DNA of 64,000 nt from an uncultured Mycoplasmatota bacterium (GTDB lineage: Bacteria; Bacillota_I; Bacilli_A; RF39; UBA660). The notes under the pieces are model-generated. The model searched no databases, was not told where the DNA came from, and worked only from the letters and a program-made list of their open reading frames with translations. How positions within the stretch are numbered: position 1 is the stretch's first letter; each line of letters opens with the position of its first letter. The translations under genes and the position numbers were made by a program. This document shows, piece after piece, positions 45,920 to 64,000 of the stretch. The DNA lies in contig URUT01000001.1 in the NCBI GenBank assembly GCA_900551105.1, positions 857-64,856 on the forward strand. The letters run 5' to 3'.

Positions 45920-47327
<1,408 letters not shown>

Positions 47328-47403
47328 ACATCTTTTTTTCACACTTTACATATTCTAATATGTTAAAATATAGTTACCAAAAAAATAAAAAAGGACGTGA
47401 TAA

Positions 47404-49162
47404 ATTGTTAAAACTATTTAAAAACTTTAAAGCAAAAGAATATTTTGCAATGTTACTATGTGTAGCATTTGTTGTCTTAGAAGTTTGGCTAGACTTAAAA
47501 ATTCCCGATTATATGTCTAAAATAACCATGTTAGTACAAACTCCAGGCAGTGCCATGAAAGACATCTTAATAAATGGTGGTAAGATGCTTCTTTGCGCAG
47601 GTGGATCACTTTTAGGTGCCGTAGTAGTAGGCTATTTTGCTGCTTATATTTCAGCGTCATTTTCAAAAATTACTAGAGAAAAACTATTTAAAAAAGTTGA
47701 AGACTTTAGTTTAGATGAAATGAAAAAATTTAAAGCAAGTAGTCTTATTACTAGAACAACTAACGATATTACCAACGTAGAAATGTTTTTAGCAATTGGC
47801 TTACAAATGATTATTAAGGCACCAATAACTGCTGTTTGGGCAATACTTAAAATTCTAAATAAAGGCAAATGGTGGAGCTTAGCAACTGGCATAGGTGTCG
47901 TAGTACTTCTAATTATCATCGGAATTTTACTAATATTAGTATTCCCTAAATTTAAGAAAGTTCAAAAATTAATTGACGATATCAATGAACTAACTAGTGA
48001 ACAACTTAAAGGTATTAGAGTAATTAGAGCATTTAATGCTGAAAGTTATAGTGAAAGAAAATTTAATAGGGGTAACACAAATTTAACTAAACTTCAAATG
48101 TTTAACCAAAAAACAATGGGAATTCTAAACCCAGGAATATATTTAATAATGCATGGCGTATCATTATCAATTTATATAATTGGTGCTTATTTAATAAACT
48201 CAGCAAACATGCTAGATAAACTTACAATCTTCAGTAACATGGTAGTATTCTCAGCCTATGCAATGCAAGTAATATCATCATTTTTAATGCTAGCATTTAT
48301 CTTTATTTTCTATCCAAGAGCCGGTGTATCAGCAACTCGTATTAATGAAATACTAGAGGTAAATCCAACTATTAAAGACGGAAAAATTGATACACATAAT
48401 GATATTAAAGGAGTAGTAGAATTTAAAAATGTCAGCTTCAAATATCCTGACAGTGAAGAATATATTCTAGAAAATGTATCATTTAAAATAGATCAAGGAA
48501 AAACTATCGCATTTATCGGATCAACCGGTTCTGGCAAAAGTACTTTAATAAATTTAGTACCTAGATTCTATGATGCTACTAAAGGTGAAATTCTAATAGA
48601 TGGCATTAACGTTAAAGATTATTCTCTAAAAACTCTTCACGAGAAAATTGGCTATGTTCCTCAAAAAGCAATTATCTTTAACGACACGATTGAAAACAAC
48701 ATCAATTATGGCGATAGTGGTAAAAAAATCACTAAAGAAAATATTTTAAATGGTGCTAAAATTGCTGAAGCCGATGAATTTATTAGTAAAATGGAAAAAG
48801 GCTACAAATCTCATATAGCATCAGGTGGAACTAACGTTTCTGGTGGTCAAAAACAAAGAATATCTATTGCTAGAGCTCTAGCAAAAACTCCTGAAATTTT
48901 AATCTTTGACGACTCATTTAGTGCCTTAGACTATAAGACTGACTACAAACTAAGAAAAGGCCTTAAAGAAAAAATGCAAGGTATCACGACAATGATCGTA
49001 GCACAAAGAATTGGTACTATTAAAGATGCTGATTTAATTATTGTTCTAGATAATGGCAAATGCGTAGGCAAAGGAACTCATAAAGAACTACTAAAAAAAT
49101 GCAAGGTCTATAAAGAAATTGCTTACTCACAACTTTCAAAGGAGGAATTAGAAAATGCATAA
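47404..49162 (+). CDS. ABC transporter permease / ATP-binding protein (heterodimeric multidrug-exporter type, subunit 1)
   Basis: Six-TM ABC_membrane domain plus NBD (Walker A GSTGSGKST, signature SGGQKQR, Walker B ILIFDD). A TTG start at 47404 after RBS AAGGA is inferred; the ORF is open from 47318. Confidence 0.8.
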
Positions 49163-50939
49163 TAAACCTGTTATCAATGACACTAAAACAGACTTTGGAA
49201 AAGAAATTAATAGACTATCAAAAGAATTAAACAAATACAAAGTTACAATTATTCTTTCTTTGATTTTTTCTACTATTAGTAGCATCCTAGCAATAATTAG
49301 TCCTAAAAAACTAGAAGAACTTACTAACACCATAATTAAAGGACTTACTGGAACTATTGACTTAGAAAAAATCACTCATATCATGACTGTTTTAATAATT
49401 ATTTATGTTGTAAGTGCGGTCTTTGACTTCTTTGAAAAATATTTAATGGTAGATGCTTGTTTAAAATTTGCTAAAGAACTTCGTAGTAAAATATCAAATA
49501 AAATAAATAAACTACCACTTAGATTTTTTGACAATCACGCAAGTGGAGACATTTTATCTGTTGTAACCAACGATGTAGATACCGTAAGTAGCAACCTAAA
49601 TAACAGTTTAGGCTTACTAGTTGGTTCTATCACACTATTAATTGGTTGTTTATTTATGATGTTTAAAACCAATTGGATTATGGCTCTAACCGCTATTTTC
49701 TCATCACTAATAGGTTTAGTATTCTTGGCAATTATTTTAAAAAAGAGTCAAAAATACTTTACAAAGCGTCAAGAAGAATTAGGTAAATTAAACGGACACA
49801 TAGAAGAAATCTATTCATCACAAACCCTAGTAAAAGCTTACAACGGGGAACAAGATGCTCTAGATAAATTTAATAAATTAAATGACAAAGTTTATACCTG
49901 TAACTTTAAAAGTCAATTTCTTGGTGGTTTAATGCCATCAATTATGGGATTTATCGGTAACTTTGGTTATGTATCAGTTTGCATCGTTGGTGCACTTCTT
50001 ACCATGAATAACAAGATCGAATTCGGAGTAATTGTTGCATTCTTTATGTACGTAAGACTATTTTCTAACCCATTATCACAAATAGCCCAAAGTTTAAATG
50101 GTCTTCAGTCCGTAGCTGCTGCCTCAAAAAGAGTATTTAATTTCTTAGATGAAAAAGAAATGACTAATGAAAGCGATAAAACTAAAAAGTTAGATCCAAA
50201 AGTTGTTAAAGGAAACATCACTTTTGAGCACGTTAAATTTGGCTACGACAAAAACAAAACTATCATCAAAGACTTTAATGCCACAGTAAAGCCAGGTGAA
50301 AAAATCGCTATTGTTGGTCCAACAGGTGCTGGTAAAACAACTATCGTTAACTTATTAATGAAATTCTACGAAATAACTGATGGTAAAATTACGATAGATG
50401 GGGTTAATATAAATGACCTAAAAAGAGAAAACATTCATGATTTATTTATCATGATTCTACAAGACACCTGGCTATTTAATGGTACTATTAGAGATAATAT
50501 TAAATATAATAATCGAGGAATAACCGATGAAGAAATTTGGAACGCATTAAAAATAGTAGGAACTGACCACTTTGTCAAAAGTTTACCTAATGGACTAGAT
50601 TATGAAATAACCGAAAGTGAAAGCATATCAGCAGGTCAAAGACAGCTTCTAACAATTGCTAGAGGTATGATTAAAAACGCACCATTCTTAATTTTAGATG
50701 AAGCAACCAGTAATGTTGATACTAGAACTGAAGAACTAGTTCAAAAAGCCATGGATAAACTTACTAAAGGAAGAACTTCATTCATCATTGCTCATCGCTT
50801 ATCAACCATTAAAAACGCTGATTTAATTCTAGTAATGAAAGATGGTAACATCATTGAGCAAGGAACTCATCAACAACTACTCAAACAAAATGGTTTCTAT
50901 GCCGAATTATATAACTCACAGTTTAGGGAAACTAAATAG
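49155..50939 (+). CDS. ABC transporter permease / ATP-binding protein (subunit 2)
   Basis: TM domain plus NBD (GPTGAGKTT, LSAGQRQ, LILDEATS) in a 594-aa ORF. Its start overlaps the stop of subunit 1. Confidence 0.85.
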   Translation: MHNKPVINDTKTDFGKEINRLSKELNKYKVTIILSLIFSTISSILAIISPKKLEELTNTIIKGLTGTIDLEKITHIMTVLIIIYVVSAVFDFFEKYLMVDACLKFAKELRSKISNKINKLPLRFFDNHASGDILSVVTNDVDTVSSNLNNSLGLLVGSITLLIGCLFMMFKTNWIMALTAIFSSLIGLVFLAIILKKSQKYFTKRQEELGKLNGHIEEIYSSQTLVKAYNGEQDALDKFNKLNDKVYTCNFKSQFLGGLMPSIMGFIGNFGYVSVCIVGALLTMNNKIEFGVIVAFFMYVRLFSNPLSQIAQSLNGLQSVAAASKRVFNFLDEKEMTNESDKTKKLDPKVVKGNITFEHVKFGYDKNKTIIKDFNATVKPGEKIAIVGPTGAGKTTIVNLLMKFYEITDGKITIDGVNINDLKRENIHDLFIMILQDTWLFNGTIRDNIKYNNRGITDEEIWNALKIVGTDHFVKSLPNGLDYEITESESISAGQRQLLTIARGMIKNAPFLILDEATSNVDTRTEELVQKAMDKLTKGRTSFIIAHRLSTIKNADLILVMKDGNIIEQGTHQQLLKQNGFYAELYNSQFRETK

Positions 50940-51025: not shown

Positions 51026-51514
51026 ATGTCAAAGAAAAACTCCAAACTTGCAAACCTAGAAGAAGAATTTAATGTAGAAACCTTGCAATTTATAAGTGAT
51101 GAAGATTTTTACAGTTTAATATTAAGATTTACTATCGCAAGAGACATATTTGCTGAAGAAAAAAAAGCTTATGCAGTTAAAAAGAAAAGATTTTCTATAA
51201 AATCTAGAGTCAGTGATGAAACTCTTGAATTAGAAAGATTTTTTAATAAAATAAAAATACTAATAGATGAAGAAAAGCAAAGAAGAAAAACTATAAAAAA
51301 CAAAAAAGCAGCACAGGCACCTATCGTTGAACTATATTTTAAAATGTTAAATGGTGACTTTTCTGAAGATATTAAAGATGAATATAAATCAGGTTTATTT
51401 AACCTAATTGAAAGTGATTATCACCTAGGTTGTTCTTCCTTTGAAGAAGCTTATGAGACTTTTAAAAATTTAATAAAAAATAATTTAAAGACAACATTAA
51501 AGGAGACTATCTAA
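51026..51514 (+). CDS. hypothetical protein, first gene of a three-gene operon
   Basis: 162-aa charged alpha-helical ORF. Its stop overlaps the next start. Confidence 0.35.
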   Translation: MSKKNSKLANLEEEFNVETLQFISDEDFYSLILRFTIARDIFAEEKKAYAVKKKRFSIKSRVSDETLELERFFNKIKILIDEEKQRRKTIKNKKAAQAPIVELYFKMLNGDFSEDIKDEYKSGLFNLIESDYHLGCSSFEEAYETFKNLIKNNLKTTLKETI

Positions 51515-52140
51515 TGGCAAAGATAATACCTGAAGAAGCCTACAAAGTATACTTAGCTTATCTAGATGACATAACTAATAGTTTAGATCTTATAACCGAA
51601 AATCTATATAGTAGAAGAACCCAAAACTTTAATGAATTATTACAAATACGTGAAAAACTTTTAGAAATATTAAATGGTTTATGTGAATTAGCAGACGTAA
51701 TGGAGTACTATCAAATAGAACTTGAAAAGCTAACCAAACTTAGTAACGTAGCAAACAAACTTTTAGGCAAAGCTTCTGAAAAATTAGCTTTAAAAGAAAA
51801 AGAAGGCGGAAGCAGGCTAAAACGCATTAGTAAAACTGGTATTGCAAAATTAAACATCGTAGAAAACCGTTTAAATGTTACCTATGAAAGAATCAAAAAA
51901 GCTAAAGGCCTAGAAAATATGTACTTAGAAGATCAAGAGGATGATCGTTTCCGCGAAGCAGTCGATATTGTTGGTCAAATTGTAAACGGACAAGACGTTC
52001 AAGTAGATGAAAATATAGCAGACATAGTTATCCTTCTTCTAGCAGAATCAGATGCAGAAAAAACTATGCCATTAAATGAATTACTTGCAATAAAAAAACA
52101 AAAATATCAAAAAGAAAATAAAAATTTAGGGGGGATTTAA
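51514..52140 (+). CDS. hypothetical protein, second gene of a three-gene operon
   Basis: 208-aa alpha-helical ORF with no motif. It is translationally coupled (ATGG overlap upstream, 2-nt gap downstream). Confidence 0.35.
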   Translation: MAKIIPEEAYKVYLAYLDDITNSLDLITENLYSRRTQNFNELLQIREKLLEILNGLCELADVMEYYQIELEKLTKLSNVANKLLGKASEKLALKEKEGGSRLKRISKTGIAKLNIVENRLNVTYERIKKAKGLENMYLEDQEDDRFREAVDIVGQIVNGQDVQVDENIADIVILLLAESDAEKTMPLNELLAIKKQKYQKENKNLGGI

Positions 52141-52141
52141 T

Positions 52142-52909
52142 ATGGAAAAACAAAAAGAAAATACTAAAAAAACCAATTTGGAACTCGCACAAAAAAATTT
52201 GACTGAGGCTTCTACAATATTAGATGAAATTCAAAATGCTTTATATCTTGATAAAGATAGAGATGCTAGCGATCCATATGCTTTATATAACGAAGCTACT
52301 AGATGTGCAGTTTTAATTGACGAAAGCAGAAAATATATCGCAAGTATTGCAACACAAAAATTGAAAATATCTAATATTACCGATATAATTAACTTAATAG
52401 GTGCTATTCTCACACTTATTACAGTTATTATCTTCGGCTCACCAGTAATTGTGCCAACCTTAGTAGCTTATGTACTAATGAAAATAACTATTAGTAAAGT
52501 AAAAAGTACTCAGCTATCTGATGCAGATGAACTTCAAAGTGTAATGGATTGTGTAAATGCCTTATCATCTAGAGCAGCTAATTATTTAGAAACGATTAAT
52601 CTTCGTGCTCAAAAAAATGCGAAAGAAGACTTAAAAATTCCCACAGGATTTACTAAACAGTTTGAACAAGCTATTGAAATAATTAACTATTATCTTCCAA
52701 ATGGAAAGTTACCTGATAACTACCAAAGTTTTGATGATATTCCACTAGATGTTAAAGTAATGCTAACAACACTTCTTTCAGGCACTGAAAAAAATAATAA
52801 CGTTAAAATGCTATTAGATGAATCTCATCAAAAATATATGAAAGCAAACAGTGCAACTACAAAAGTATTACAAAAAGAAAATGCTTCAAATAAAAAATCA
52901 ATCACCTAA
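52142..52909 (+). CDS. hypothetical membrane-anchored protein, third gene of a three-gene operon
   Basis: 255-aa ORF with a single central TM (IINLIGAILTLITVIIFGSPVIVPTLVAYVLM) flanked by helical regions. Confidence 0.35.
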   Translation: MEKQKENTKKTNLELAQKNLTEASTILDEIQNALYLDKDRDASDPYALYNEATRCAVLIDESRKYIASIATQKLKISNITDIINLIGAILTLITVIIFGSPVIVPTLVAYVLMKITISKVKSTQLSDADELQSVMDCVNALSSRAANYLETINLRAQKNAKEDLKIPTGFTKQFEQAIEIINYYLPNGKLPDNYQSFDDIPLDVKVMLTTLLSGTEKNNNVKMLLDESHQKYMKANSATTKVLQKENASNKKSIT

Positions 52910-52971
52910 GATTGATTTTTTTGTATAAAAATAAAATATATTCTCATAATAATAGCAGAAAAGAGGAAAAA

Positions 52972-53508
52972 ATGAAAAGAAAGAGACTAATAATTGTACT
53001 GTTGTTATTAATTGGTTTAACTGGTTGTGCTTTTGGAAGCTCACCAAAAAGTAGAGTAGAAAACTTACTAAACAAATACCAAATGAATGCAAGTGACGTT
53101 AAAAGTGAACTAGATGACTTTTTAAATACCTTAAGTATTGACACTGACTTCAAAGAAGATTATCGCAAAGTCTATGAAAAACAATATAGTGATTTAAAAT
53201 ACAAAATTAAAGATGAAACAATCGATGGTGACAAAGCAACAGTTAAAGCTGAAATAGAAGTGTATGATTATTACAAAGCCGAAAATGATGCAAGCAGTTA
53301 TATAGCTGCTAATCCAAATGAATTTAATGAAGATGGCGTTTATAGTGTGAAAAAAGGTTTAGAATACAAAATCAAACAGTACACTAATAGTAACGATAGA
53401 GTAACTTACACAATTGACTTTACTCTTACAAAAAATAATAATAAATGGACAATTGACCCGTTAACAGATGATGAACTGGCCAAATTACACGGAACTTATG
53501 CTCACTAA
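52972..53508 (+). CDS. lipoprotein, hypothetical
   Basis: MKRKRLIIVLLLLIGLTGCAFG lipobox after RBS AGAGGAAAAAATG, in a 178-aa ORF. Confidence 0.5.
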   Translation: MKRKRLIIVLLLLIGLTGCAFGSSPKSRVENLLNKYQMNASDVKSELDDFLNTLSIDTDFKEDYRKVYEKQYSDLKYKIKDETIDGDKATVKAEIEVYDYYKAENDASSYIAANPNEFNEDGVYSVKKGLEYKIKQYTNSNDRVTYTIDFTLTKNNNKWTIDPLTDDELAKLHGTYAH

Positions 53509-54850: not shown

Positions 54851-55261
54851 GTGATAAAGTTGAAAAAAATAATTATATTGCTCTTAATATTAATAATTCC
54901 AGTAACAGTAAAAGCTGAAGAGTTAGACATTACTGCTAAGTCTAGTATACTAATAGAAGCTTCAACCGGTGAAATATTAAGTGAAAAAAATAGCGATGAA
55001 AAGCTTGCTCCTGCATCTATGACTAAAATCATGACAATGCTTCTAATTATGGAAAGCCTTGAAAAAAATGAATATAGTCTAGAAGATAAAGTAAATATCA
55101 GTACTAATGCCGCAAGCATGGGAGGAAGTCAAGTCTTTCTAGAGGCAGGTTCTGAACTAAAAGTAAAAGAACTACTAAAAGCAATTGCTATCGCATCCGC
55201 TAATGATGTAGTAGTGACAAAAAAGCAGTCGCAAGTTATAGGCGAAGAAATAATAATATAA
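54851..55261 (+). pseudogene. dacA: D-alanyl-D-alanine carboxypeptidase (PBP5/DacA-like) gene truncated after about 136 codons
   Basis: Signal peptide, SxxK active site (PASMTKIMT) and alignment to B. subtilis DacA through ...AIAIASAND. The frame then stops after GEEIII, although full-length DacA homologues run about 380-440 aa. The downstream DNA encodes an unrelated Rep-like gene. Confidence 0.55.
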
Positions 55262-55350: not shown

Positions 55351-56109
55351 ATGTCAATTTTTAAGATAGAAAAAAATAAAAATTATACAGTTATGAGTAA
55401 TCATCACTTAAGAGATAAAAATTTAAGTTATAAGGCTAAGGGATTGTTGTCATTTATGTTATCATTGCCAGAAGATTGGGACTACTCAATGAATGGGTTA
55501 GAATCAATAAGCAAAGAAAGCATAAAAGCAATTAGGAATATACTTCAAGAATTAGAAGAAAATAAGTATTTGATAAGAACAAGAATGCAAGATAATGAAG
55601 GGAAATTTTATTATGATTATTCAATTTACGAAATACCATTTGATATAAACCCGTATTACCAAAAAGGGCATACGGTAAAAGGGCGTACCGAAAAGGACAT
55701 ACAAATAAATACTAATAAACAAAATACTAAAAAACAAATAGATAAAGATGATAAAACCAAAATATCATCTTTTTTTGTGCCAGAAGAACATAATATTTTA
55801 ACCTTAGAATTAATTGATAAGGGTTTTATAAAAAAAGAAGATATACAAATTTTTTATTATGATAATCTATTTGAACAGTTAATACAAGATGGCAACTCTT
55901 ATAAAGATTTAGTTAAAATAATTCATTATATAATTCCGAGAGTTTTAAAAAGAAATTTTAAAGATGAAGATGGTAATGAAATAGAAAATAAGTTTGGATA
56001 TTTTAAAAATGCAATTATTAGCAATATAAATAAACTTAATACGGATATAGAAGATTTATGGGGAGAAGAAGAACTAGAAGATATATATAGTTCCAATATG
56101 GAAAGATAA
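55351..56109 (+). CDS. plasmid / ICE-type replication initiator-like protein (RepA_N / DnaD-like winged-helix N-domain)
   Basis: YTVMSNHHLRDKNLSYKAKGLLSFMLSLPEDWDYSMNGLESISKESIKAIRNILQELEENKYLIRTR matches the conserved N-terminus of Firmicute plasmid/phage Rep proteins (Y..v.N.l.rd..LS.kAKGl.afm.SlP.dW.f...gL.......k.ai...i.eLe..gYl.R). RBS GGAGG lies 8 nt before the ATG. Confidence 0.6.
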   Translation: MSIFKIEKNKNYTVMSNHHLRDKNLSYKAKGLLSFMLSLPEDWDYSMNGLESISKESIKAIRNILQELEENKYLIRTRMQDNEGKFYYDYSIYEIPFDINPYYQKGHTVKGRTEKDIQINTNKQNTKKQIDKDDKTKISSFFVPEEHNILTLELIDKGFIKKEDIQIFYYDNLFEQLIQDGNSYKDLVKIIHYIIPRVLKRNFKDEDGNEIENKFGYFKNAIISNINKLNTDIEDLWGEEELEDIYSSNMER

Positions 56110-56296
56110 GCATAAAAAAATCGTCTCTAAACTAGCAGACGATCTACTTCTCAGTTGAAAAATACTACATTACTGCATCAACTGAATCAAATTCACACGA
56201 TACTACATATGCTATTTGATAAATCAATAATAACACAAAAATTGCCTTAATGCAACAAAAAAATCCAAAATACTCCACTTTTTTTGTCAAAATCTA

Positions 56297-56324
56297 TTGA
56301 CTTTTCTTTTTAAAACTATATAAT
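56297..56324 (+). promoter_or_regulatory. strong sigma-A promoter of the island operon
   Basis: TTGACT, 16 nt, TATAAT. The greA-like start at 56384 follows after RBS AAAGGGGGAA. Confidence 0.55.
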
Positions 56325-56383
56325 AAATAATCGGTAAGACCAAATATCTATTTAATAATAATCTTTGAAAGGGGGAATAATAA

Positions 56384-56932
56384 ATGAAAAATAATGAAGA
56401 AAAGTTATATTTAGATAATGATGGCTATCAGAGATTACTTGAAGAAATAGATTTATTAAAGGCAAAACTTGCAAAAAATGGAAAAGAAAAAGGAGAAGCC
56501 TATTCTGGTGCAGTAGGTGACGGATGGCACGATAATTTTGCTTTTGATGAAGCCAATATGCAAGAAAGAATGATTTTAGGTCAACTTAAAGAATGTTACC
56601 AAAAATTAGAAAGAGCAGTAATTGTAGAAAGACACGATGATGAAACATTAGTTGATGTCAACGATATTGTTACAGTAGATATGATTTTCGGACCTGATGA
56701 TAGTGAAGAATTAGAATTTAAATTAGTTGGCTCTGTAGGATCACACACTTCTGATAATAGTGGTATTCAAGAAGTTTCAATTAATAGTCCATTGGGTAAG
56801 TCAGTTTACCATAAAAAAGTCGGAGAATCAGCAAGTTATAAAGTTGAGAGTAGAATCTTTAACATAGAAATTTTATCAAAGGTTTCTGAAAAAGATTTAG
56901 AAAGTGGAATTCAAAGAAAAAAAACTAGATAA
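56384..56932 (+). CDS. GreA/GreB-family (Rnk-like) transcription factor
   Basis: N-terminal coiled coil (GYQRLLEEIDLLKAKLAK) and C-terminal FKBP-like Gre domain (VSINSPLGKSVYHKKVGESASYKVESRIFNIEIL matches iS..SPlG.allGkkvGd......p.g...y.I..i), in a 182-aa ORF. Confidence 0.65.
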   Translation: MKNNEEKLYLDNDGYQRLLEEIDLLKAKLAKNGKEKGEAYSGAVGDGWHDNFAFDEANMQERMILGQLKECYQKLERAVIVERHDDETLVDVNDIVTVDMIFGPDDSEELEFKLVGSVGSHTSDNSGIQEVSINSPLGKSVYHKKVGESASYKVESRIFNIEILSKVSEKDLESGIQRKKTR

Positions 56933-56948
56933 TATAAGGAGGGCAATT

Positions 56949-57074
56949 ATGAACAAATTTATTGTAAAATTAAAAGAAAAACAAAAATATAAAGAATTAA
57001 AAACTAGTGTTTGTTCATCAAAAAATGAATTATTTTGTTGTCCCCTAAAAAAATATTTAAAGAGTATCAATTAG
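56949..57074 (+). CDS. 41-aa Lys-rich, Cys-containing peptide MNKFIVKLKEKQKYKELKTSVCSSKNELFCCPLKKYLKSIN: candidate precursor or leader peptide
   Basis: Near-perfect RBS AAGGAGGG lies 5 nt before the ATG. Its last codons form the 5' arm of a terminator hairpin, and the ORF sits between greA-like and the biosynthetic operon. Cys are at positions 22, 31 and 32 (tandem TGT TGT). Confidence 0.45.
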   Translation: MNKFIVKLKEKQKYKELKTSVCSSKNELFCCPLKKYLKSIN

Positions 57075-57107
57075 TTAACAATTTTAGCTTTTGATACTCT
57101 TTTTTTC
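57059..57107 (+). terminator. intrinsic terminator / attenuator between the peptide ORF and the downstream operon
   Basis: Twelve-bp stem AAAGAGTATCAA / TTGATACTCTTT with a 20-nt loop, then TTTTTC. The 5' arm contains the peptide stop codon. Confidence 0.6.
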
Positions 57108-57124
57108 AAATGTAAGGGTTTAAG

Positions 57125-58837
57125 GTGATGAAAATGAAAGAAGAAAAATTTCCAATTATAAAGGCTGGATACATATTTAATAAATTTAATGCTAAAGTAA
57201 ATATTCCAGTAATATTAAATAAACAAGAAGTTGAAATTAAATATCCGTGTAGGCTAGATGCAATGGCTATAAATCCAGCGGCAGTTTGTTATAATGATAG
57301 TATGGTTTTTACTCCTGGTGAAGTAGTAATATCGCTAAAAAAATTTATAAAGGTTAAAATTACTGTAAAAAGTGAAAGTGGAGGACAATTGAATATCTCC
57401 AAACGAACAAAAAGAAAAGTTTTAGTAAAGCATTCTTACTTATTAATGTGTAATGCTTTAAATATCTCTCCTTCTTTGGATATTGATGTTGATGATGATG
57501 ATATACCAAAACATTGTGGTTTTGGATCAAGCAGTTCTACAATATCTGCTGTTGCTTCTGCTATTAATGAACTATATTCGTGTCCAATTAATGATAAAGA
57601 TTTAATTATATATTTAGCATCTAATCACGGAGAAGAAATCTCTGACAATGATGAAGAAAATTTAAAAGTAGTTCAATGTATTGGTGGTGGTGCTACTAAT
57701 GGGTTAACTGAAGAAGGCATTATAATTATTGCAGGTAAATCAACTGCTATTGCTAAAATGAAATATGAATCAGAAGTGTTAATAGGTTTTCCAAATGACT
57801 TTGTTCAAAAAGATGCTAAAGTATTAATGGAACTAGAAGAAAAAAATTTATGGAAGTTTAAAAAGACTGGCGAAGAATATGCTGAAAAAATAGCATACGA
57901 TTTACTACATAAAGCATTACCAGATATGGCTAATGGTAATATAAAAGAATTAGCTGATGTTGTATTTGATTATAGATTTAATATGGGAAGTAATGAAAAT
58001 TGTTCATTTGTTTATGACGGGTTAATGAATATTAGTGATAAAATAAGAAAACTCTATGAAAATAATGACTGTGAATTTTTAGCATTGTCTTCTGTTGGTC
58101 CTGCATTCTTTGTATTAGTAAAGAATGAAAATCAAAAAAAGAAATGTAAAGAATTTATGGAAAAATTAGATTTAAAAGTAATTGAATCATCTGTTTGTAA
58201 TACCAAATATATAGTTTCTAAATTTTCTAATGCACAATGTTTTTGGGAAAAAGAAAATGTTGGAGAGTCATTTAGAACACGAAAGCCATCAAAATATATT
58301 ACGGATCAAATTGATGCTTTAAATGTATCAGATAAAAAGTGTATCGATATAGGATGTGGTGGTGGAAGATATTCCAAATATTTACATCAAATGAAAGCAA
58401 ATGTATTAGCAATTGATAAATATCAAGAGATGTTTGATCATAATTCAAATATAAACTTTGTTCAATGTAAAATGGATAATATTCCTGTGGTTGAAAATTC
58501 ATATTATTTAGCATTATCTATTGGAGTAATACATAATGCCATAACAATTGAAGAATATAAAAATTCATTAAAAGAAATTTATAGAATTCTTAATAAAGAT
58601 GGATATGCGATATTATCGACATTTACAAATGATGTTATTACTAGTGATTTGATAAAAACAGGGGAAAATACTTATTTAATTAAAGATAGACCACCAATGG
58701 TATTATTGAGTAAAGAACAAATACAAGATTATGTGTCTGAGGTTGGATTTACAATAATTAAAATAGTTGATGAACATATAACTGATGTTGGAAGTGGAGA
58801 AAGAAATGTTTATACAGTCCTTATTAAAAAACAGTAA
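57125..58837 (+). CDS. two-domain enzyme: N-terminal GHMP-kinase-fold domain plus C-terminal class I SAM-dependent methyltransferase
   Basis: GHMP ATP-binding motif PKHCGFGSSSSTISAVASAI at about aa 128. C-terminal MTase motif I CIDIGCGGGRYSKYL, post-I acidic residue (LAIDKY) and motif II region. 570-aa ORF. Confidence 0.6.
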   Translation: MMKMKEEKFPIIKAGYIFNKFNAKVNIPVILNKQEVEIKYPCRLDAMAINPAAVCYNDSMVFTPGEVVISLKKFIKVKITVKSESGGQLNISKRTKRKVLVKHSYLLMCNALNISPSLDIDVDDDDIPKHCGFGSSSSTISAVASAINELYSCPINDKDLIIYLASNHGEEISDNDEENLKVVQCIGGGATNGLTEEGIIIIAGKSTAIAKMKYESEVLIGFPNDFVQKDAKVLMELEEKNLWKFKKTGEEYAEKIAYDLLHKALPDMANGNIKELADVVFDYRFNMGSNENCSFVYDGLMNISDKIRKLYENNDCEFLALSSVGPAFFVLVKNENQKKKCKEFMEKLDLKVIESSVCNTKYIVSKFSNAQCFWEKENVGESFRTRKPSKYITDQIDALNVSDKKCIDIGCGGGRYSKYLHQMKANVLAIDKYQEMFDHNSNINFVQCKMDNIPVVENSYYLALSIGVIHNAITIEEYKNSLKEIYRILNKDGYAILSTFTNDVITSDLIKTGENTYLIKDRPPMVLLSKEQIQDYVSEVGFTIIKIVDEHITDVGSGERNVYTVLIKKQ

Positions 58838-59891
58838 TTATGTTGTTTCTAAAAGAAACTTTCTATCAGATTATTCAAGAATTGAATCTAAAAAAATAGA
58901 TATGACATTGTCTGGAAAATTTTTATCTAGTTATGGTAAATTAAAAATAAATCCAAAGGAATTTGACAAATATCCATCACACGATGAGATTAATAAGTTA
59001 GAGCAAGAAATTAAAAATCACGAAAATATACAACAAGAAATAATTTTAGGTGCAGGAGCAAATGGCATTTTACAAAATATCATAAAACTGTTTTTTGTTA
59101 AAAGAGGAAATTTGGTTACACCATTTTATACATTTAATCAAGTTGAGTTTGGAGTTACATCTTTTAATGGTAAAACATATAGAGTTTTTACTGATAATTA
59201 TAAAATTAATTTTAATAAAATGAAAAAAGCTATTAATAGAAAAACGAGAATGGTTTATATTTGTAATCCTAACAATCCAACTGGTCTATATGAAAATTGT
59301 GAAAATATTATAAATTTTGCCAAAAGTATAAATGTTCCTGTTGTCGTTGATGAGTCTGGAATAGAATTTACAAATAAAAAAAGTTTATTGAGTTATAAAA
59401 ATATTCCTAAAAATTTATTAATTGTAAGATCATTTTCTAAAGCCTATGGTATTGCAAATTTTAGACTTGGTTATCTTGTGTGTAACCCCGAATTTAAGCA
59501 AAGTTATCTTGAAAATATAACGACAAACGAATTTTCTGGGTTGTCTTGTATAGTTGCGAACGAGTTGTTGAAAAATGGAAAAGAAAATATAACGAATAAT
59601 ATTAAATCTATAACCAAAGAGAAAAAAGTAATAATTAAAAAACTTGATAAAATAGGAATTAAATGTATTTTAAGTGATTCAAACACTATAATGACAGACA
59701 GCGTTTTTAAAAACGAATTTTTAAAACTACTTGAACAAAATAATATATCAGTTGTTCCAGTATATGATGAAAATAATAAATTGCATATAAGAATTGCAAT
59801 TCAAGATGAAATTACAAATAAAAAGTTTGTAGATATTTTAGTAAAAATAATGAACGAATATCAAGTATTAGAAGATGGAGGTAAAAAATGA
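58785..59891 (+). CDS. PLP-dependent class I/II aminotransferase-fold enzyme (HisC / CobD-like)
   Basis: ICNPNNPTG motif and PLP-lysine motif RSFSKAYGIANFRLGY. The ORF overlaps the upstream stop, and the true start may be at a downstream ATG (58806 or 58902). Confidence 0.65.
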   Translation: MLEVEKEMFIQSLLKNSNYVVSKRNFLSDYSRIESKKIDMTLSGKFLSSYGKLKINPKEFDKYPSHDEINKLEQEIKNHENIQQEIILGAGANGILQNIIKLFFVKRGNLVTPFYTFNQVEFGVTSFNGKTYRVFTDNYKINFNKMKKAINRKTRMVYICNPNNPTGLYENCENIINFAKSINVPVVVDESGIEFTNKKSLLSYKNIPKNLLIVRSFSKAYGIANFRLGYLVCNPEFKQSYLENITTNEFSGLSCIVANELLKNGKENITNNIKSITKEKKVIIKKLDKIGIKCILSDSNTIMTDSVFKNEFLKLLEQNNISVVPVYDENNKLHIRIAIQDEITNKKFVDILVKIMNEYQVLEDGGKK

Positions 59892-61057
59892 AAATATCGT
59901 TAGCAACAAATTTTGATAATAAATTAATTGATCAAATTAAAGATTATCCTGTGTATGAAGTTTATGGAAAAATGAAACACGATTATATTGGTGGAGGAAG
60001 ACCAGATAACACTTTGTCCAATATAGATAAAGAATTATTTGAATCTCACATTAAAAAGGTAAGAGAAGCAGGTATTAGATTTAATTATTTACTGAATGGT
60101 AGTTGTTTATCCAATAATGAGCAAGATCCAGCGTGGCAATCTGAATTCAAAAGGTTTTTAGAATATTTAAAAGATATAGGCGTTAATGCTTTGACAATAA
60201 CTAATCCGTACATTTTAATGTTTGTAAAAAAATATTTTAAAGAAGATTTTAAAGTTAGGGTTTCCACATTTGCTTGTATTGACTCTTACACAAAAGCAAA
60301 ATACTGGGAAGATCTTGGTGCAGATTACTTATGTGTAGATTTTGTAAAAGTAAATAGAGATTTTAAGACACTAAAATATATGGTTGATAATTTAAAAACA
60401 GCTAAAATAGAGATTTTAGTAACAAATAGTTGTTTAAAAAATTGCCCTATGATATATACACATACAACTGGCTTATCTCACGCTTCGAATAAAGATAAAA
60501 ATAGTAATTCTTATGAAGATTGGAGTTTGTTTTATTGTCAAAAAAAAGAATTAGAAAATATTGAAGAATATATTAGATCACCGTGGGTTAGACCTGAGGA
60601 TATTAAATTTTACGAAAATATTGGTATAGAACATTTTAAAATTACTGAAAGAGGTTTTCCAACTGAGGAATTGGTGAAAAGAGTGAAAGCCTATACTGAT
60701 AGAAAATATGAAGGTAATTTGTTAGATTTAATACAAGGACACGGCGTAGTAGCAAAAGATGATTTGAAATTACAAAGGCAAAGTGTTAATAGTAGAAAAG
60801 AAATATATGAAGAAATTAGACGAGTTAGAGGATTAGGAAGACAAAGAGAATGTGAGAGACATATATATATTGATAATAAAAAACTTGATAATTTTATAAC
60901 ATTCTTTATAGATAATAAGTGTACAGGCAATTGTAACTCGTGTGGATATTGTAATATGATTGCTAAAAATGTAATTACTAAAAACAAAGAAGTATGTGAT
61001 TATTTATTGGAATTATATAACAAATATGATGAAGTAAAGATGGATGTAAATGAGTAA
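59888..61057 (+). CDS. U32-family (peptidase U32 / RlhA-TrhP-like) protein with a C-terminal Cys cluster
   Basis: The TIM-barrel segment order matches the U32 topology (GVNALTITNPYIL; RVSTFACIDSYTKAKYWEDLGADY...VNRDFK; KIEILVTNSCLKNC, similar to vElevFvHGalC..yS). C-terminal CTGNCNSCGYC. Assignment by pattern only. Confidence 0.45.
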   Translation: MKISLATNFDNKLIDQIKDYPVYEVYGKMKHDYIGGGRPDNTLSNIDKELFESHIKKVREAGIRFNYLLNGSCLSNNEQDPAWQSEFKRFLEYLKDIGVNALTITNPYILMFVKKYFKEDFKVRVSTFACIDSYTKAKYWEDLGADYLCVDFVKVNRDFKTLKYMVDNLKTAKIEILVTNSCLKNCPMIYTHTTGLSHASNKDKNSNSYEDWSLFYCQKKELENIEEYIRSPWVRPEDIKFYENIGIEHFKITERGFPTEELVKRVKAYTDRKYEGNLLDLIQGHGVVAKDDLKLQRQSVNSRKEIYEEIRRVRGLGRQRECERHIYIDNKKLDNFITFFIDNKCTGNCNSCGYCNMIAKNVITKNKEVCDYLLELYNKYDEVKMDVNE

Positions 61058-61637
61058 GATTGGGATTGATATAGCGGATACTATTATAGATGTTTGGCCT
61101 TCTTTAATAAAAAAAGCAAAACAATTCAACCTAGAACATTCAAATAATAAACCAAGTGAGGAAAAACATTTATATTTGCCAGAAGATATATATGGCTGGT
61201 CTAAAGAGGAAAAGGAAGAATTTTGGGAGTGTTATGGACAAGAAATAACATTTTCATCACCAGTAAAAAAGGGAGTAGTTGATACTTTACAATATTTTAA
61301 AGAATTGGGATATTTAATATATTTTATTACTGCAAAGACAGAAGATACATATGCTGATTTGGAAAAGAAAATTATAGAATTGTTAGTGAAAAATAATTTG
61401 CCTTATGACAAAATATTTATGCAAGTTAGTAATAAAGGAAAATTTTGTTTTGAAAATGGAATTGAATATTTAATAGATGATTCTTTTGATAATTGTTCAA
61501 AAGCTAATCAGTATGGAATAAAGAGTCTATTGATGACTAACGAATACAATATTGACAGAGTACTATACGACAATATGTATAGAATCAATGAATTTTCGGA
61601 AGCAAAAAAATATATTAAAAAAAATAGGAGGTTTTAG
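61050..61637 (+). CDS. HAD-superfamily NT5C-like nucleotidase (paralog of 40211)
   Basis: KIGIDIADTIIDV (degenerate DxDxT), YFITAKT and YLIDDSFDN. Overall colinear with the 40211 protein. 195-aa ORF. Confidence 0.5.
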   Translation: MSKIGIDIADTIIDVWPSLIKKAKQFNLEHSNNKPSEEKHLYLPEDIYGWSKEEKEEFWECYGQEITFSSPVKKGVVDTLQYFKELGYLIYFITAKTEDTYADLEKKIIELLVKNNLPYDKIFMQVSNKGKFCFENGIEYLIDDSFDNCSKANQYGIKSLLMTNEYNIDRVLYDNMYRINEFSEAKKYIKKNRRF

Positions 61638-62239
61638 TGAAAAAAGTATTGTTTTTGGTTGGACCACACGCAAGTGGAAAAACATACTCATCAAGAGAGT
61701 ATATTGCAAAAAATAAAAATATTGGAATGATTGATACTGGACCAATTATGAGAAGAATACATAAAGAAATGGATCCAGATACTTCAATGGGAGATTGGGT
61801 AAAAAAATTAGAAGTTCAGTATGGAAAGGATATTACTTCTCAATTGATTTCAAATGAAATAGGTAAAATAATGTCTAATGATGAGTGCGATAAATTTATC
61901 TTAATTGGATTTAGAACATTAGAAGGAATAGCATTTACTATTCAACATTTGAATATAGAAGATTTTAGTATTTTATATGTAGATGCAACGCAAGAATTAT
62001 TATATAAAAATTATTTAGCAAGAGAGAAGAAAAATATTTCATTTGAAGATTTTAAAAACTATTTACAAAATGAGTTAAATAGTGGGCTTACAAAATTAAG
62101 GGAAATGGCATTAGATGGTGATATGGTTGATTATTATTATCGTTTCAGTAATAATGATAGTTTTGAAGAAAAAATAGATAGCCATTTAACTAATTGTGAG
62201 ATAAAAAAATTAAGAAAGGAGCCTAAAAATGGAAAATAA
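61637..62239 (+). CDS. P-loop NTPase, predicted nucleoside / nucleotide kinase
   Basis: Walker A VLFLVGPHASGKTY at the extreme N-terminus in a 200-aa ORF. The size and layout are typical of small (d)NMP or nucleoside kinases. Confidence 0.5.
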   Translation: MKKVLFLVGPHASGKTYSSREYIAKNKNIGMIDTGPIMRRIHKEMDPDTSMGDWVKKLEVQYGKDITSQLISNEIGKIMSNDECDKFILIGFRTLEGIAFTIQHLNIEDFSILYVDATQELLYKNYLAREKKNISFEDFKNYLQNELNSGLTKLREMALDGDMVDYYYRFSNNDSFEEKIDSHLTNCEIKKLRKEPKNGK

Positions 62240-62822
62240 TTATATTTGGCCTATTGAACCACAATATAAAGTCTTGGAACACGACAGATATGGTTTAAGG
62301 CCAGTGCATATGATACTTGGAAAACCTAGATTTCATTCTGGATTTGATATTACTGCACAAACTCTTACCCCAGTAAAAGCATCAATTGAAGGAATTGTTG
62401 TATCAGCAGGTTTAGACGAAAAGATTATATCTGGAAGTGCAAAATGGAATGAAAGATATGGCAACAAGGTTGAAATATTGGATAGAAATGGTAGAAGACT
62501 AGTCTATGCACATTTAAGAGAAGTTTTAGTTCAACTTGGTCAGCAAATAGAACAAAGCCAAATAATTGGTTTAAGTGGTTGCTCTGGTGGTTCAAGAATA
62601 CCTCATTTACATTTTGAAGTAAGAAAATTTGATACTAGTCATTCTGGAGAAGAAAATACTATTAATCCATTGGAGATATTACCATACTATGATTTGGAAA
62701 ATTTAGCAAAACACTTTGATGAAGAACCCTATGCAGAAGTATGGGAAAAATTTCTAGAAAATCCGTGGGGAATGACTGATAACGATATTCCTTATGCAAA
62801 TTGCAGAAAATTAATAAGATAA
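62229..62822 (+). CDS. M23-family (LytM-type) metallopeptidase domain protein, no signal peptide
   Basis: HxxxD (HSGFDI), central YGNKVEILDRNGRRLVYAHL and C-terminal HLHFEV motifs in a 197-aa ORF. Confidence 0.65.
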   Translation: MENNYIWPIEPQYKVLEHDRYGLRPVHMILGKPRFHSGFDITAQTLTPVKASIEGIVVSAGLDEKIISGSAKWNERYGNKVEILDRNGRRLVYAHLREVLVQLGQQIEQSQIIGLSGCSGGSRIPHLHFEVRKFDTSHSGEENTINPLEILPYYDLENLAKHFDEEPYAEVWEKFLENPWGMTDNDIPYANCRKLIR

Positions 62823-62860
62823 TAAAAATATATGGTATAATAGAGTTGGAGGATGATAAA

Positions 62861-63439
62861 ATGGAAAAACCAATATATTTAACTGGTAATAAGGGGAAAT
62901 TTGAGGAGGCACAACATATTTTTAAAGATATGTATGGATTTGATATCGAGATTAAAAATCCTGATTTTGAAATCATTGAAATACAAGCAAAAAGTTGCAA
63001 AGAAGTAGTTGCATTTAGTGTAAAATATGCTTGTGAAAAATTAGGCAGACCTTGTATTAAATCAGATTCTGGTTTATATATAGATGCTTTAGGAGGCCTA
63101 CCTGGTCCTTATAATGCATATTTTGACAAGCAAATTGGTGTTGATAAGTTCTTGGAATTATTCAAAAACGAAACTAATAGAAAGGCAAGATTAGAAGATT
63201 GTTTTGCTTATTGTGAGCCAGGACAAGAACCTGTTATATTTACTGGTGGTGGAACTGGTACAATAGCAACAGAAGCAAGAGGTAATTTGGGAAGATGGCA
63301 CGATAAGTTTTATATTCCAGATGGGGAAACAGAAACATTAAGCGAATTAAGAGAAAAAGATAGAGATTATGAAGCAAAATTTTGGGGTACTGCTAAATAT
63401 GATTTTGCTGAATGGTTTAAAAACAATAAAATGCAATAA
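62861..63439 (+). CDS. non-canonical purine NTP pyrophosphatase (Ham1 / RdgB / ITPase family)
   Basis: IYLTGNKGKFEE (similar to ATGN.GK..E), KSDSGLYIDALGGLPGPYNAYF (similar to DDSGL.vdAL.G.PGvySaR) and CFAYCEPG. Start at ATG 62861 after RBS GGAGG. Confidence 0.7.
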   Translation: MEKPIYLTGNKGKFEEAQHIFKDMYGFDIEIKNPDFEIIEIQAKSCKEVVAFSVKYACEKLGRPCIKSDSGLYIDALGGLPGPYNAYFDKQIGVDKFLELFKNETNRKARLEDCFAYCEPGQEPVIFTGGGTGTIATEARGNLGRWHDKFYIPDGETETLSELREKDRDYEAKFWGTAKYDFAEWFKNNKMQ

Positions 63440-63460
63440 AAAATTTTGATAGGGGGTCAA

Positions 63461-64000
63461 ATGATGAAAAAGGTTACAATCATTGCGGGACCGTGTGCAG
63501 TTGAATCTGAGGAACAAATAGTTAGGATTGCCATAAAACTAAAACAAATTGGTGTTGATTATTTAAGAGGCGGTGCATTTAAACCACGAACTAACCCAGA
63601 CAGTTTTCAAGGATTGGGAGATTTGGGAATAGAATATCTTTTAAAAGCTAAAGAAATAACTGGCTTACCAATTGTTACCGAATTAATGACAATAGAACAG
63701 GTAAGAAAATATGCAGATAAAATTGATATTATACAAATTGGTAGTAGAAATATGTATAATTATGAATTATTAAAAGAATTAAGCCATTATTCAAAACCTG
63801 TATTATTAAAAAGAGGTTTAAGTGCCACATATAGTGAATGGATTAATGCTGCAAAATATATAAATAATGAAGACAAGGTTATTTTATGTGAAAGGGGAAT
63901 AAGAAGTTTTGACACAACAACAAGAAATGTCCTAGATATTCAAGCAGTTCCGTATATTAAAAATAACACAAAGCATAAAATTTTTGTTGATCCTAGTCAC
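63461..64000 (+). CDS. aroF: 3-deoxy-7-phosphoheptulonate (DAHP) synthase, type I-beta catalytic barrel only (3' end beyond window)
   Basis: IIAGPCAVESEEQ, LRGGAFKPRTNPDSFQGLG, QIGSRNMYNYELLKEL, VLLKRG, VILCERGIRSFDTTTRNVLDIQAVP and IFVDPSH. These match Thermotoga / Bacillus-type DAHP synthase better than KDO8P synthase. RBS GGGGG precedes ATG 63461, and there is no N-terminal regulatory domain. Confidence 0.75.
   Translation, partial: MMKKVTIIAGPCAVESEEQIVRIAIKLKQIGVDYLRGGAFKPRTNPDSFQGLGDLGIEYLLKAKEITGLPIVTELMTIEQVRKYADKIDIIQIGSRNMYNYELLKELSHYSKPVLLKRGLSATYSEWINAAKYINNEDKVILCERGIRSFDTTTRNVLDIQAVPYIKNNTKHKIFVDPSH

What the first reader, a model, noticed from the sequence alone, without database searches (positions are those of the whole stretch)
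59888..64000. U32-family enzyme + regulatory-domain-less DAHP synthase in the same operon: possible prephenate-dependent hydroxylation route
Established knowledge: U32 proteins RlhA and TrhP hydroxylate C or U at C5 in rRNA and tRNA using prephenate, a shikimate-pathway product. DAHP synthase is the first committed shikimate step, and the copy here lacks any feedback-regulatory N-domain. Their co-occurrence with an MTase (57125; compare TrmR, which turns ho5U into mo5U), a P-loop kinase, nucleotidase and Ham1 sanitiser suggests synthesis of a 5-hydroxy or 5-alkoxy pyrimidine nucleotide. This is speculative, but it is a coherent reading of an otherwise odd gene set.
Basis: inference. Interest (0 to 1): 0.55.

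Follow-up and report, generated by a model that had tools for sequence, protein, structure and literature searches.

The report
Two-cluster U32 nucleotide cassette, orphan DAHP synthase
A small gut bacterium carries an uncharacterised gene cassette, built around an unusual iron-sulfur "U32" enzyme, that probably makes a modified nucleotide without oxygen; the neighbouring DAHP synthase cannot feed it, because the rest of the shikimate pathway was not found in this 91%-complete genome.

Summary
A U32-family gene lies at 59888-61057. A core-only type I-beta DAHP synthase starts at 63446. Both sit in one unbroken co-directional gene string.

The U32 protein is not RlhA/TrhP-like. It belongs to a large unnamed U32 branch with a changed central Cys site and an extra C-terminal CX3CX2CX2C site. 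Relatives of this branch lie in the arabosyl-5-hydroxycytosine DNA-modification clusters of T4-like and large low-GC phages. There they sit beside chorismate mutase or DAHP synthase-chorismate mutase fusions. One metagenomic protein fuses chorismate mutase to this U32 type. A prephenate link, and nucleotide-level chemistry, are therefore plausible.

The self-contained route fails. The genome (91% complete) lacks AroB, DHQase I, AroE, AroA, AroC and both chorismate mutase types. AroC was found in 0 of 151 genomes of the order. DAHP synthase accompanies the cassette only in some relatives.

The conserved core is four genes:
- a GHMP-fold/methyltransferase fusion
- a HisC/CobD-like PLP enzyme
- the U32-like protein
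- an NMP-kinase-like protein, which is fused to Ham1 or to an M23 domain in relatives

The product is unknown. This scan had already noted the same cassette on other DNA.

The parts
56384..56932 (+). GreA/GreB-like factor gene, probable first gene of the string
   Evidence: PF01272 scores 35.5 bits. The best promoter-like site (11 of 12 matches) lies in the gap upstream, at window 56297-56324. A GreA-like gene lies beside the cassette in L006, L009, L010, L030, L033, L034, L038 and L105.
57125..58837 (+). GHMP-fold domain (about residues 1-375) fused to a class I SAM methyltransferase (about residues 390-555)
   Evidence: PF00288 scores 38 bits and PF08241 scores 51.7 bits. The AF2 model of the N-domain has pLDDT 80.7. 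The top fold matches are tied: homoserine kinase 1fwk at Z 24.2 and ForT 8ap0/6yqq at Z 23.9-23.1. The gene is present in every related cassette.
58785..59891 (+). HisC/CobD-family PLP enzyme
   Evidence: PF00155 scores 116 bits. TIGR01141 hisC scores 158 bits (cut-off 276) and TIGR01140 CobD scores 123 bits (cut-off 290). The PLP-lysine motif SFSK is at residue 216. The gene is always in the cassette.
59888..61057 (+). Two-cluster U32-like protein, the putative O2-independent hydroxylase
   Evidence: PF01136 scores 31.1 bits. The AF2 model has pLDDT 93.7, and the top fold match is the U32 structure 5d88 (E 1.3e-11). C182, C186, C217 and C345/C349/C352/C355 are invariant. It is 32% identical (E 1e-38) to the RB69p050-type phage protein.
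61050..61637 (+). Weakly HAD-like protein, an accessory gene
   Evidence: Only sub-threshold matches were found. An ortholog is present only in the nearest relatives (L006, L007, L030, L033, L034); L008 has only a 29%-identical HAD-like gene about 5 kb away.
61637..62239 (+). NMP-kinase-like P-loop protein
   Evidence: PF13207 scores 28.3 bits, with a weak adenylate kinase model match. It has GPHAxGKT, DTGPxxR and GFRxxEG motifs with invariant R39, R93 and R129. It is in every cassette. It is fused to Ham1 (L021) or to M23 (L008-L010).
62229..62822 (+). M23 domain protein with no N-terminal leader before the catalytic domain, so probably cytoplasmic
   Evidence: PF01551 scores 78.7 bits. HxxxD and HxH are intact. 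It is fused to the kinase in three related lineages.
62801..63439 (+). Ham1/RdgB-family NTP pyrophosphatase
   Evidence: PF01725 scores 109.5 bits, but it falls below the NCBIfam equivalog cut-offs. It lies beside the cassette in most relatives and is fused to the kinase in L021. However, 91-92% identical orthologs exist without the cassette.
63446..64000 (+). Core-only type I-beta DAHP synthase (the gene continues 186 nt beyond the window)
   Evidence: It is the single copy in the genome. dN/dS is 0.08-0.31. It accompanies the cassette only in near relatives and in L025.

Best explanation
The window ends in a conserved cassette of a small-genome gut Bacilli lineage whose relatives are labelled uncultured Mollicutes, Tenericutes or Bacilli. 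The cassette most likely builds or remodels a non-canonical nucleotide at the mononucleotide level.

Inferred scheme:
1. A nucleotide, or a ring joined to ribose phosphate by the GHMP-fold domain (which could be a kinase or a ForT/beta-RFAP-type PRPP enzyme), is hydroxylated without O2 by the two-cluster U32-like protein. A prephenate-type oxygen donor probably serves.
2. The fused methyltransferase methylates the product.
3. The HisC/CobD-like PLP enzyme either tailors it or recycles the keto-acid by-product.
4. The NMP-kinase-like protein phosphorylates it.
5. Ham1 returns triphosphates to monophosphates, or polices the pool.

The DAHP synthase is an accessory, functional but orphan gene. 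Its position next to this U32 type echoes the phage DAHPS-chorismate mutase/U32 pairs. Here it cannot yield prephenate, because the intermediate enzymes were not found.

Shown: the gene content, the synteny, the fusions, the Cys patterns and the pathway gaps. Inferred: every catalytic step and the product.
For: - Core synteny: GHMP-MT, the HisC-like gene, the U32-like gene and the kinase stay together in every related locus long enough to tell, although their order is shuffled.
- Natural fusions: kinase-Ham1 and kinase-M23, and U32-like-methyltransferase in P0281.
- The kinase carries adenylate-kinase-like NMP-binding motifs and has weak PDB matches to AdkA-like and UMP kinases.
- The U32-like family has two invariant Cys groups, and its phage members keep both.
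- 222 T4-like phages carry a homologue between the HAD phosphatase and the 5hodCMP-synthase ThyA homologue (PMC13326640).
- CM_2 lies beside it in Proteus phage PM2, with homologues of that gene in 24 phage records.
- DAHPS-CM_2 fusions lie beside U32-like genes in three kinds of IMG/VR phage loci.
- P0165 is a Chorismate_bind + CM_2 + U32-like fusion.
- All cassette genes, DAHPS included, are under purifying selection.
Against: - No biochemical datum exists for any member of this U32 branch. The only paper that lists the phage member calls it a 'sugar or heterocycle reductase' without testing it (PMC13326640).
- The GHMP domain cannot be told apart as kinase or PRPP enzyme.
- Close Ham1 orthologs exist without the cassette, so Ham1's place beside the cassette may be partly inherited neighbourhood.
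- Distant environmental relatives of the U32-like gene sit with MMPL transporters and B12-radical SAM genes, which points to lipid rather than nucleotide substrates there.
- The organism has no known source of prephenate.
- No partner genes are shared with the phage clusters apart from the U32-like gene.
Confidence: 0.42

Rival explanations
1. The operon is a self-contained route in which the DAHP synthase feeds the shikimate pathway to prephenate, which the U32 enzyme uses to make a 5-hydroxy or 5-alkoxy pyrimidine nucleotide.
For: DAHPS and the U32-like gene share one gene string. DAHPS-CM fusions lie beside U32-like genes in phages. The DAHPS is intact and under purifying selection.
Against: AroB, DHQase I, AroE, AroA, AroC, CM_1 and CM_2 were not found in a 91%-complete genome. 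AroC was found in 0 of 151 genomes of the order. DAHPS is missing from most cassettes. It occurs alone in four other genomes of the order, plus a broken copy in a fifth (G088), none of them with a U32-like gene.
Confidence: 0.05
2. The cassette tailors a non-nucleotide small molecule, for example an aromatic amino or keto acid. That molecule is hydroxylated, O-methylated, transaminated and phosphorylated. DAHPS, Ham1 and M23 are unrelated neighbours.
For: HisC-family enzymes commonly act on aromatic keto acids. The methyltransferase resembles UbiE, UbiG and BioC types. Some cassettes carry an extra Orn/Arg-decarboxylase-like gene, a second aminotransferase or an extra methyltransferase. Distant U32-like relatives sit with MMPL and B12-radical SAM genes. 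Ham1 occurs without the cassette.
Against: The kinase has NMP-kinase motifs and is physically fused to Ham1 in one lineage. The closest contextual information for this U32 type comes from phage nucleotide pathways.
Confidence: 0.25
3. The U32-like protein is not a hydroxylase at all. It would be, for example, an Fe-S reductase or dehydratase acting on a sugar or heterocycle, and the chorismate mutase and DAHPS neighbours in phages would serve another purpose.
For: No U32 protein has yet been shown to hydroxylate in vitro (PMC10990095, PMC11574389). The Cys pattern differs from that of the studied U32 oxidases. PMC13326640 lists RB69p050 as a possible reductase.
Against: Chorismate mutase and DAHPS-CM recur next to this branch, and one protein fuses them. 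That is hard to explain other than by prephenate use, the one co-substrate genetically tied to U32 enzymes.
Confidence: 0.15

Closest known systems
RlhA, TrhP and UbiU-UbiV (Fe-S U32 'oxidases'; prephenate-dependent, O2-independent hydroxylation of 23S rRNA C2501, tRNA U34 and ubiquinone precursors)
   Same: It has a U32 TIM-barrel domain (PF01136; 5d88 is the top fold match). It has conserved Cys residues suited to Fe-S binding. Its branch is tied to chorismate mutase by neighbourhood and by fusion.
   Different: The central motif is C-x3-C...C(x30) rather than CX6CX15CX3C, and there is a second, C-terminal CX3CX2CX2C group. It has no DUF3656 or U32 C-terminal domain. It matches no NCBIfam TrhP, UbiU or UbiV model. 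The genome already has a canonical yrrM/N/O-like TrhP operon on another contig.
RB69p050-type 'peptidase U32' of T4-like phages, inside the arabinosyl-5-hydroxycytosine cluster (PMC13326640)
   Same: It belongs to the same U32 branch: 32% identity over 300 residues, E 1e-38, with both Cys groups kept. The function of both is untested.
   Different: The phage gene sits with KpsF, an AfhE-like kinase/nucleotidyltransferase, a HAD phosphatase, the ThyA-homologue 5hodCMP synthase, a glycosyltransferase and a dNMP kinase. The bacterial HAD and kinase are not homologous to the phage ones. No phage has the GHMP-methyltransferase fusion.
ForT, PyfQ and beta-RFAP/RHP synthase (GHMP-fold, PRPP-dependent C-glycoside synthases) versus homoserine kinase
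   Same: The GHMP-fold N-domain aligns with ForT over 296-300 residues at Z 23.1-23.9 and 16-17% identity. It has a His at the start of the GHMP loop and an invariant N-terminal Arg, as described for ForT (PMC8183095).
   Different: Homoserine kinase scores equally well (Z 24.2). HMM scores favour ThrB (41 bits) over beta-RFAP synthase (29 bits). No aromatic-acid substrate is evident.
Unregulated type I-beta DAHP synthases, and the Bacillus-type DAHPS/chorismate mutase fusion
   Same: The catalytic core passes the curated cut-offs and has the metal- and PEP-binding motifs. It has no regulatory domain.
   Different: No downstream shikimate enzyme was found in the genome or the order. The phage versions beside U32-like genes carry a C-terminal CM_2 domain that this one lacks. 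It is only 27-33% identical to those phage proteins, and its DNA is nearest to clostridial and fusobacterial aroF.
Phage T4 nucleotide-pool rewriting (dCTPase, dCMP hydroxymethylase, dNMP kinase)
   Same: It combines an NTP pyrophosphatase, a base-modifying enzyme and an NMP-kinase-like protein in one unit.
   Different: It is a cellular chromosome, not a phage. The protein families differ (Ham1 rather than MazG-type, U32 rather than ThyA-type). Whether the product enters DNA, RNA or neither is unknown.

Membership tests
Peptidase U32 family (PF01136) | Match to the family model above the gathering score, and a U32 TIM-barrel fold | tested here: met
   31.1 bits against a cut-off of 22.4. The AF2 model's top match is 5d88, E 1.3e-11.
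RlhA (23S rRNA ho5C2501 synthase) | U32 motif together with a DUF3656 domain (Kimura 2017, PMC5727448) | tested here: not met
   Pfam finds only PF01136 in the 389-aa protein.
TrhP, UbiU and UbiV | Match to the curated NCBIfam models NF011996, NF047963 and NF047965 | tested here: not met
   No NCBIfam family matched at E<=0.01. The C27 paralogue scores 279.5 bits on TrhP.
Studied U32 oxidases | Four-Cys motif CX6CX15CX3C (PMC11574389) | tested here: not met
   The invariant Cys residues are C182-x3-C186, C217 and C345-x3-C349-x2-C352-x2-C355.
Studied U32 oxidases | Dependence on prephenate as oxygen donor | not testable with these tools
   The support is contextual only: CM_2 and DAHPS-CM neighbours and a fusion in relatives.
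Two-cluster U32 branch (RB69p050-like) | Both Cys groups, and full-length similarity to phage and metagenomic members | tested here: met
   
Type I-beta DAHP synthase | Score above the curated cut-offs, and the catalytic motifs | tested here: met
   NF006421 scores 349 against 335, and TIGR01361 scores 311.9 against 267.75. The motifs are present.
Shikimate pathway to prephenate | Presence of AroB, AroD, AroE, AroK, AroA, AroC and chorismate mutase in the genome | tested here: not met
   None was found for AroB, DHQase I, AroE, AroC, CM_1 or CM_2. The single EPSP-family hit is MurA. The genome is 90.8% complete. Type II DHQase and shikimate kinase were not searched.
HisC or CobD equivalogs | Score above the TIGR01141 or TIGR01140 cut-offs | tested here: not met
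   158 bits against 276, and 123 bits against 290. The PLP-Lys motif is present.
ForT/beta-RFAP synthase class | Closer to the PRPP enzymes than to GHMP kinases | tested here: inconclusive
   Z scores are tied with homoserine and mevalonate kinases. Sequence matches are weak to both.
NMP kinase (adenylate/UMP-CMP kinase type) | P-loop, NMP-binding Arg motifs and a LID Arg | tested here: inconclusive
   The motifs are present and invariant, but model scores are low (29 bits; PDB E 0.007).
Ham1/RdgB | Match above the Pfam cut-off, and above the equivalog cut-off | tested here: inconclusive
   PF01725 scores 109.5 bits and passes. NF011396 scores 144 against 203, and TIGR00042 scores 115 against 145, so both fail.

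The most novel reading that the evidence does not exclude
One unnamed, two-cluster branch of the U32 family is an oxygen-free, prephenate-type hydroxylase of free nucleotides. Gut bacteria use it in a cassette that makes a hydroxylated and methylated, possibly C-linked, nucleotide. T4-like and large anaerobe phages use it to make 5-hydroxycytosine DNA without O2. The bacterial hosts, which have no shikimate pathway, must scavenge the oxygen donor or use a new one.
Probability: 0.3. Interest if true: 0.8.

Novelty: new variant of a known kind. Interest (0 to 1): 0.62.

Why it matters
U32 enzymes are the only known hydroxylases that take oxygen from an organic donor, and only three substrate classes are known: rRNA, tRNA and quinones. 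A branch acting on free nucleotides would add a fourth class. It would explain how phages of anaerobes could make 5-hydroxycytosine DNA when the known ThyA-type enzyme needs O2. It would also point to an undescribed nucleotide metabolite in abundant gut bacteria.

There is a second puzzle. Across the sampled order, canonical TrhP-like or RlhA-like genes are present in 147 of 151 genomes, yet no chorismate synthase was found in any. This directly tests whether prephenate is really obligatory for U32 chemistry.

Tried and rejected
- Cobamide nucleotide-loop reading (PduX-like kinase, CobD and a CobU-like kinase): rejected, because the genome has no CbiB and no CobS.
- Phosphocholine-type reading (kinase, decarboxylase and N-methyltransferase): not pursued. 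The methyltransferase domain gave no PMT-like PDB match, and the reading leaves the U32-like gene and the NMP-kinase-like gene unexplained.
- Phage search with the GHMP-methyltransferase fusion found no match.
- Plasmid search with the whole cassette found only short aroF-like matches.
- The window's HAD and kinase are not homologous to the phage HAD and kinase.
- A phmmer search for chorismate mutase in six-frame translations of the window's tail (L002) and about 100 related loci held found nothing. The IMG/VR phage loci fetched later are the ones that hold CM.
- The ESM Atlas search on the GHMP domain returned only generic GHMP clusters.
- Cluster names for distant U32-like relatives were uninformative.
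- Single-protein scans of viral contigs with the U32-like protein and with the DAHPS found nothing.
- The 60-sequence alignment was too diverse for a collection scan.
- The fold search could not separate ForT-type enzymes from kinases.
- The promoter and terminator scan is no better than chance overall.
- No complex prediction was run.

Full report
WHAT IS THERE

The window is contig C1:857-64856 of a 1.2-Mb genome of about 29% G+C, 90.8% complete. Its relatives are labelled uncultured Mollicutes, Tenericutes or Bacilli gut MAGs.

From 57125 to 64899 (contig terms) nine + strand genes overlap or lie 6 nt or less apart:
- a GHMP-fold/class I methyltransferase fusion
- a HisC/CobD-like PLP enzyme, with the SFSK lysine motif
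- a U32-family protein
- a weakly HAD-like protein
- a P-loop protein
- an M23 domain protein
- Ham1
- a 246-aa DAHP synthase
- a 237-aa ORF with no family match

A Gre-like gene, with the best promoter-like site of the region upstream of it, precedes the string.

THE DAHP SYNTHASE

It is a genuine type I-beta core: it scores above two curated cut-offs and its motifs are intact. No regulatory domain is present. It evolves under purifying selection, with dN/dS of 0.08-0.31, and it is the only copy.

The genome, however, has no AroB, DHQase I, AroE N-domain, AroC, CM_1 or CM_2. Its single EPSP-synthase-family gene is MurA. Chorismate synthase was found in 0 of 151 sampled genomes of the order.

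Core-only DAHP synthase occurs in 6 of those 151 genomes, one copy being broken. In the other genomes it sits in unrelated contexts: histidine phosphatase, IleRS and AAA_28 genes. Beside the cassette it is seen only in near relatives (95% or more) and in one locus at 79% U32 identity.

So it is neither a relocated housekeeping gene nor a feeder of prephenate. It is a functional orphan whose product has no known consumer here.

THE U32 PROTEIN

It matches PF01136 weakly and matches no TrhP, UbiU or UbiV model. A canonical methyltransferase/small-U32/TrhP-like operon lies on contig C27.

The protein is rare in its own order (2 of 151) and phylum (2 of 399). Even so, it belongs to a very large metagenomic family: 1645 clusters at 50% identity.

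Across 125 members the invariant residues are C182, C186 and C217 (plus C73 in most) and a C-terminal C-x3-C-x2-C-x2-C group. This is not the CX6CX15CX3C motif of the studied enzymes (PMC11574389). The AF2 model is confident (pLDDT 93.7). It resembles only the U32 structure 5d88 beyond generic TIM barrels.

RELATIVES IN PHAGES

In all, 222 T4-like phages of Enterobacterales and Shewanella encode a homologue (32% identity, E 1e-38, both Cys groups kept). In both phages whose annotated region was read, it lies between the HAD phosphatase and the ThyA homologue that makes 5-hydroxy-dCMP. This is the arabinosyl-5-hydroxycytosine cluster described in PMC13326640.

That paper lists the gene (RB69p050) only as a possible reductase. 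It shows that the ThyA homologue uses O2. The Acinetobacter phage DLP3 cluster in the same paper lists no such gene.

In Proteus phage PM2 a bona fide CM_2 chorismate mutase lies between the U32-like gene and the ThyA homologue. Homologues of that gene occur in 24 phage records and adjoin the ThyA homologue wherever the record is annotated.

In IMG/VR contigs of large low-GC phages, U32-like genes sit with KpsF, AfhE-like and glycosyltransferase genes. In three kinds of loci they lie next to a DAHP synthase-CM_2 fusion protein.

One metagenomic protein (P0165) fuses anthranilate/isochorismate-synthase-like, CM_2 and U32-like domains. Another (P0281) fuses U32-like and UbiE-like methyltransferase domains.

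These independent links make prephenate use by this branch plausible. They also make a nucleotide substrate plausible for the phage members. This lead was also present in earlier notes of this scan. I reached the T4-like part independently, and I checked the DAHPS-CM part on loci I fetched myself.

THE BACTERIAL CASSETTE

In every related locus long enough to tell, four genes stay together although their order is shuffled: the GHMP-methyltransferase fusion, the PLP enzyme, the U32-like gene and the P-loop gene.

The P-loop protein has adenylate-kinase-like motifs: GPHAxGKT, DTGPxxR and GFRxxEG, with invariant Arg residues. It is fused to Ham1 in one lineage and to the M23 domain in three. Some cassettes add a methyltransferase, an Orn/Arg-decarboxylase-like gene or a second aminotransferase.

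Ham1 is usually adjacent, but 91-92% identical orthologs occur without the cassette. Ham1 is patchy in the order (63 of 151).

The GHMP domain model (pLDDT 80.7) matches homoserine kinase and the PRPP-dependent C-glycoside synthase ForT equally well (PMC8183095). The earlier suggestion that it is ForT-like therefore remains open.

Distant environmental U32-like genes come as tandem paralogues with MMPL and B12-radical SAM genes, and some have DUF2621 tails. The branch as a whole is therefore not restricted to nucleotides.

READING

The best-supported explanation is a nucleotide-level tailoring cassette in which the U32-like protein is the oxygen-free hydroxylase. The DAHP synthase is an accessory orphan gene. 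Its adjacency echoes the phage prephenate-supply pairs, but it cannot work that way here.

Two puzzles remain: what consumes DAHP, and where the oxygen donor comes from. Across the sampled order, 147 of 151 genomes carry canonical TrhP-like or RlhA-like genes and none has chorismate synthase.

No paper I could search describes the cassette or assigns a function to this U32 branch.

Noticed in passing
whole order of the window's genome (genome search): Canonical U32 genes (TrhP-like, about 400 aa, and RlhA-like, about 730 aa) are present in 147 of 151 sampled genomes. Chorismate synthase was found in 0 of 151. These bacteria keep 'prephenate-dependent' hydroxylase homologues without a shikimate pathway.
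   Followed up: partly
G000 contig C27:11956-14526 (L004:687-3257): A yrrM/yrrN/yrrO-like operon: a methyltransferase, a small U32 protein and a TrhP-like U32 protein (279.5 bits on NF011996). It is the canonical tRNA ho5U/mo5U system of this genome.
   Followed up: partly
L008:11159-12379, L009:7177-8355, L010:11204-12379; L021:6040-7209: Natural fusions of the NMP-kinase-like protein with an M23 domain that has intact Zn motifs and is probably cytoplasmic (three lineages), and with Ham1 (one lineage).
   Followed up: partly
L118:6408-7427, L120:6315-7367, L123:9064-10179 (IMG/VR phage contigs): DAHP synthase-CM_2 fusion proteins lie next to U32-like genes inside KpsF/AfhE-like/glycosyltransferase kits of large low-GC phages. 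A ThyA homologue was seen in only one of the 15 loci, using a weak tblastn search.
   Followed up: partly
P0165 (924 aa) and P0281 (684 aa), metagenomic proteins: Two domain fusions: Anth_synt_I_N + Chorismate_bind + CM_2 + U32-like, and U32-like + UbiE-like methyltransferase.
   Followed up: partly
L044, L045, L047, L067 (environmental metagenome loci): A recurrent unit of a B12-binding radical SAM gene, two U32-like paralogues, an MMPL/sterol-sensing transporter, a 197-aa ORF and two more U32-like paralogues. Many distant members carry a DUF2621-like tail.
   Followed up: partly
G088:C18:4147-4835 (L020): The orphan DAHP synthase of another genus in the order is split by stop codons, so it appears to be decaying.
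   Followed up: no
G107:C11 and G079:C3 (L107, L108): Ham1 orthologs 91-92% identical to the window's occur in another genus without any cassette gene nearby. That is unusually high identity for that distance.
   Followed up: no
window 54851-55261: A 136-aa ORF matches only the first 109 of 239 positions of the D-Ala-D-Ala carboxypeptidase S11 model. It looks like a truncated gene.
   Followed up: no
window 51026-53508: Four consecutive + strand ORFs (162, 208, 255 and 198 aa) with no Pfam match lie downstream of two ABC exporter genes (47318-50939) and TGT (45923-47041).
   Followed up: no
window 56000-64000: GC skew rises to +0.23 to +0.34 and G+C falls to 25-28%, against about +0.07 and 30% upstream. 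The composition shift coincides with the cassette.
   Followed up: no
contig C1:65042-65755 (just past the window; L002:8043-8756): A 237-aa ORF overlaps the DAHP synthase stop by one base. It has no Pfam or NCBIfam match. It is conserved with DAHPS in the nearest relatives, and dN/dS reaches up to 0.9 in the closest pairs.
   Followed up: partly
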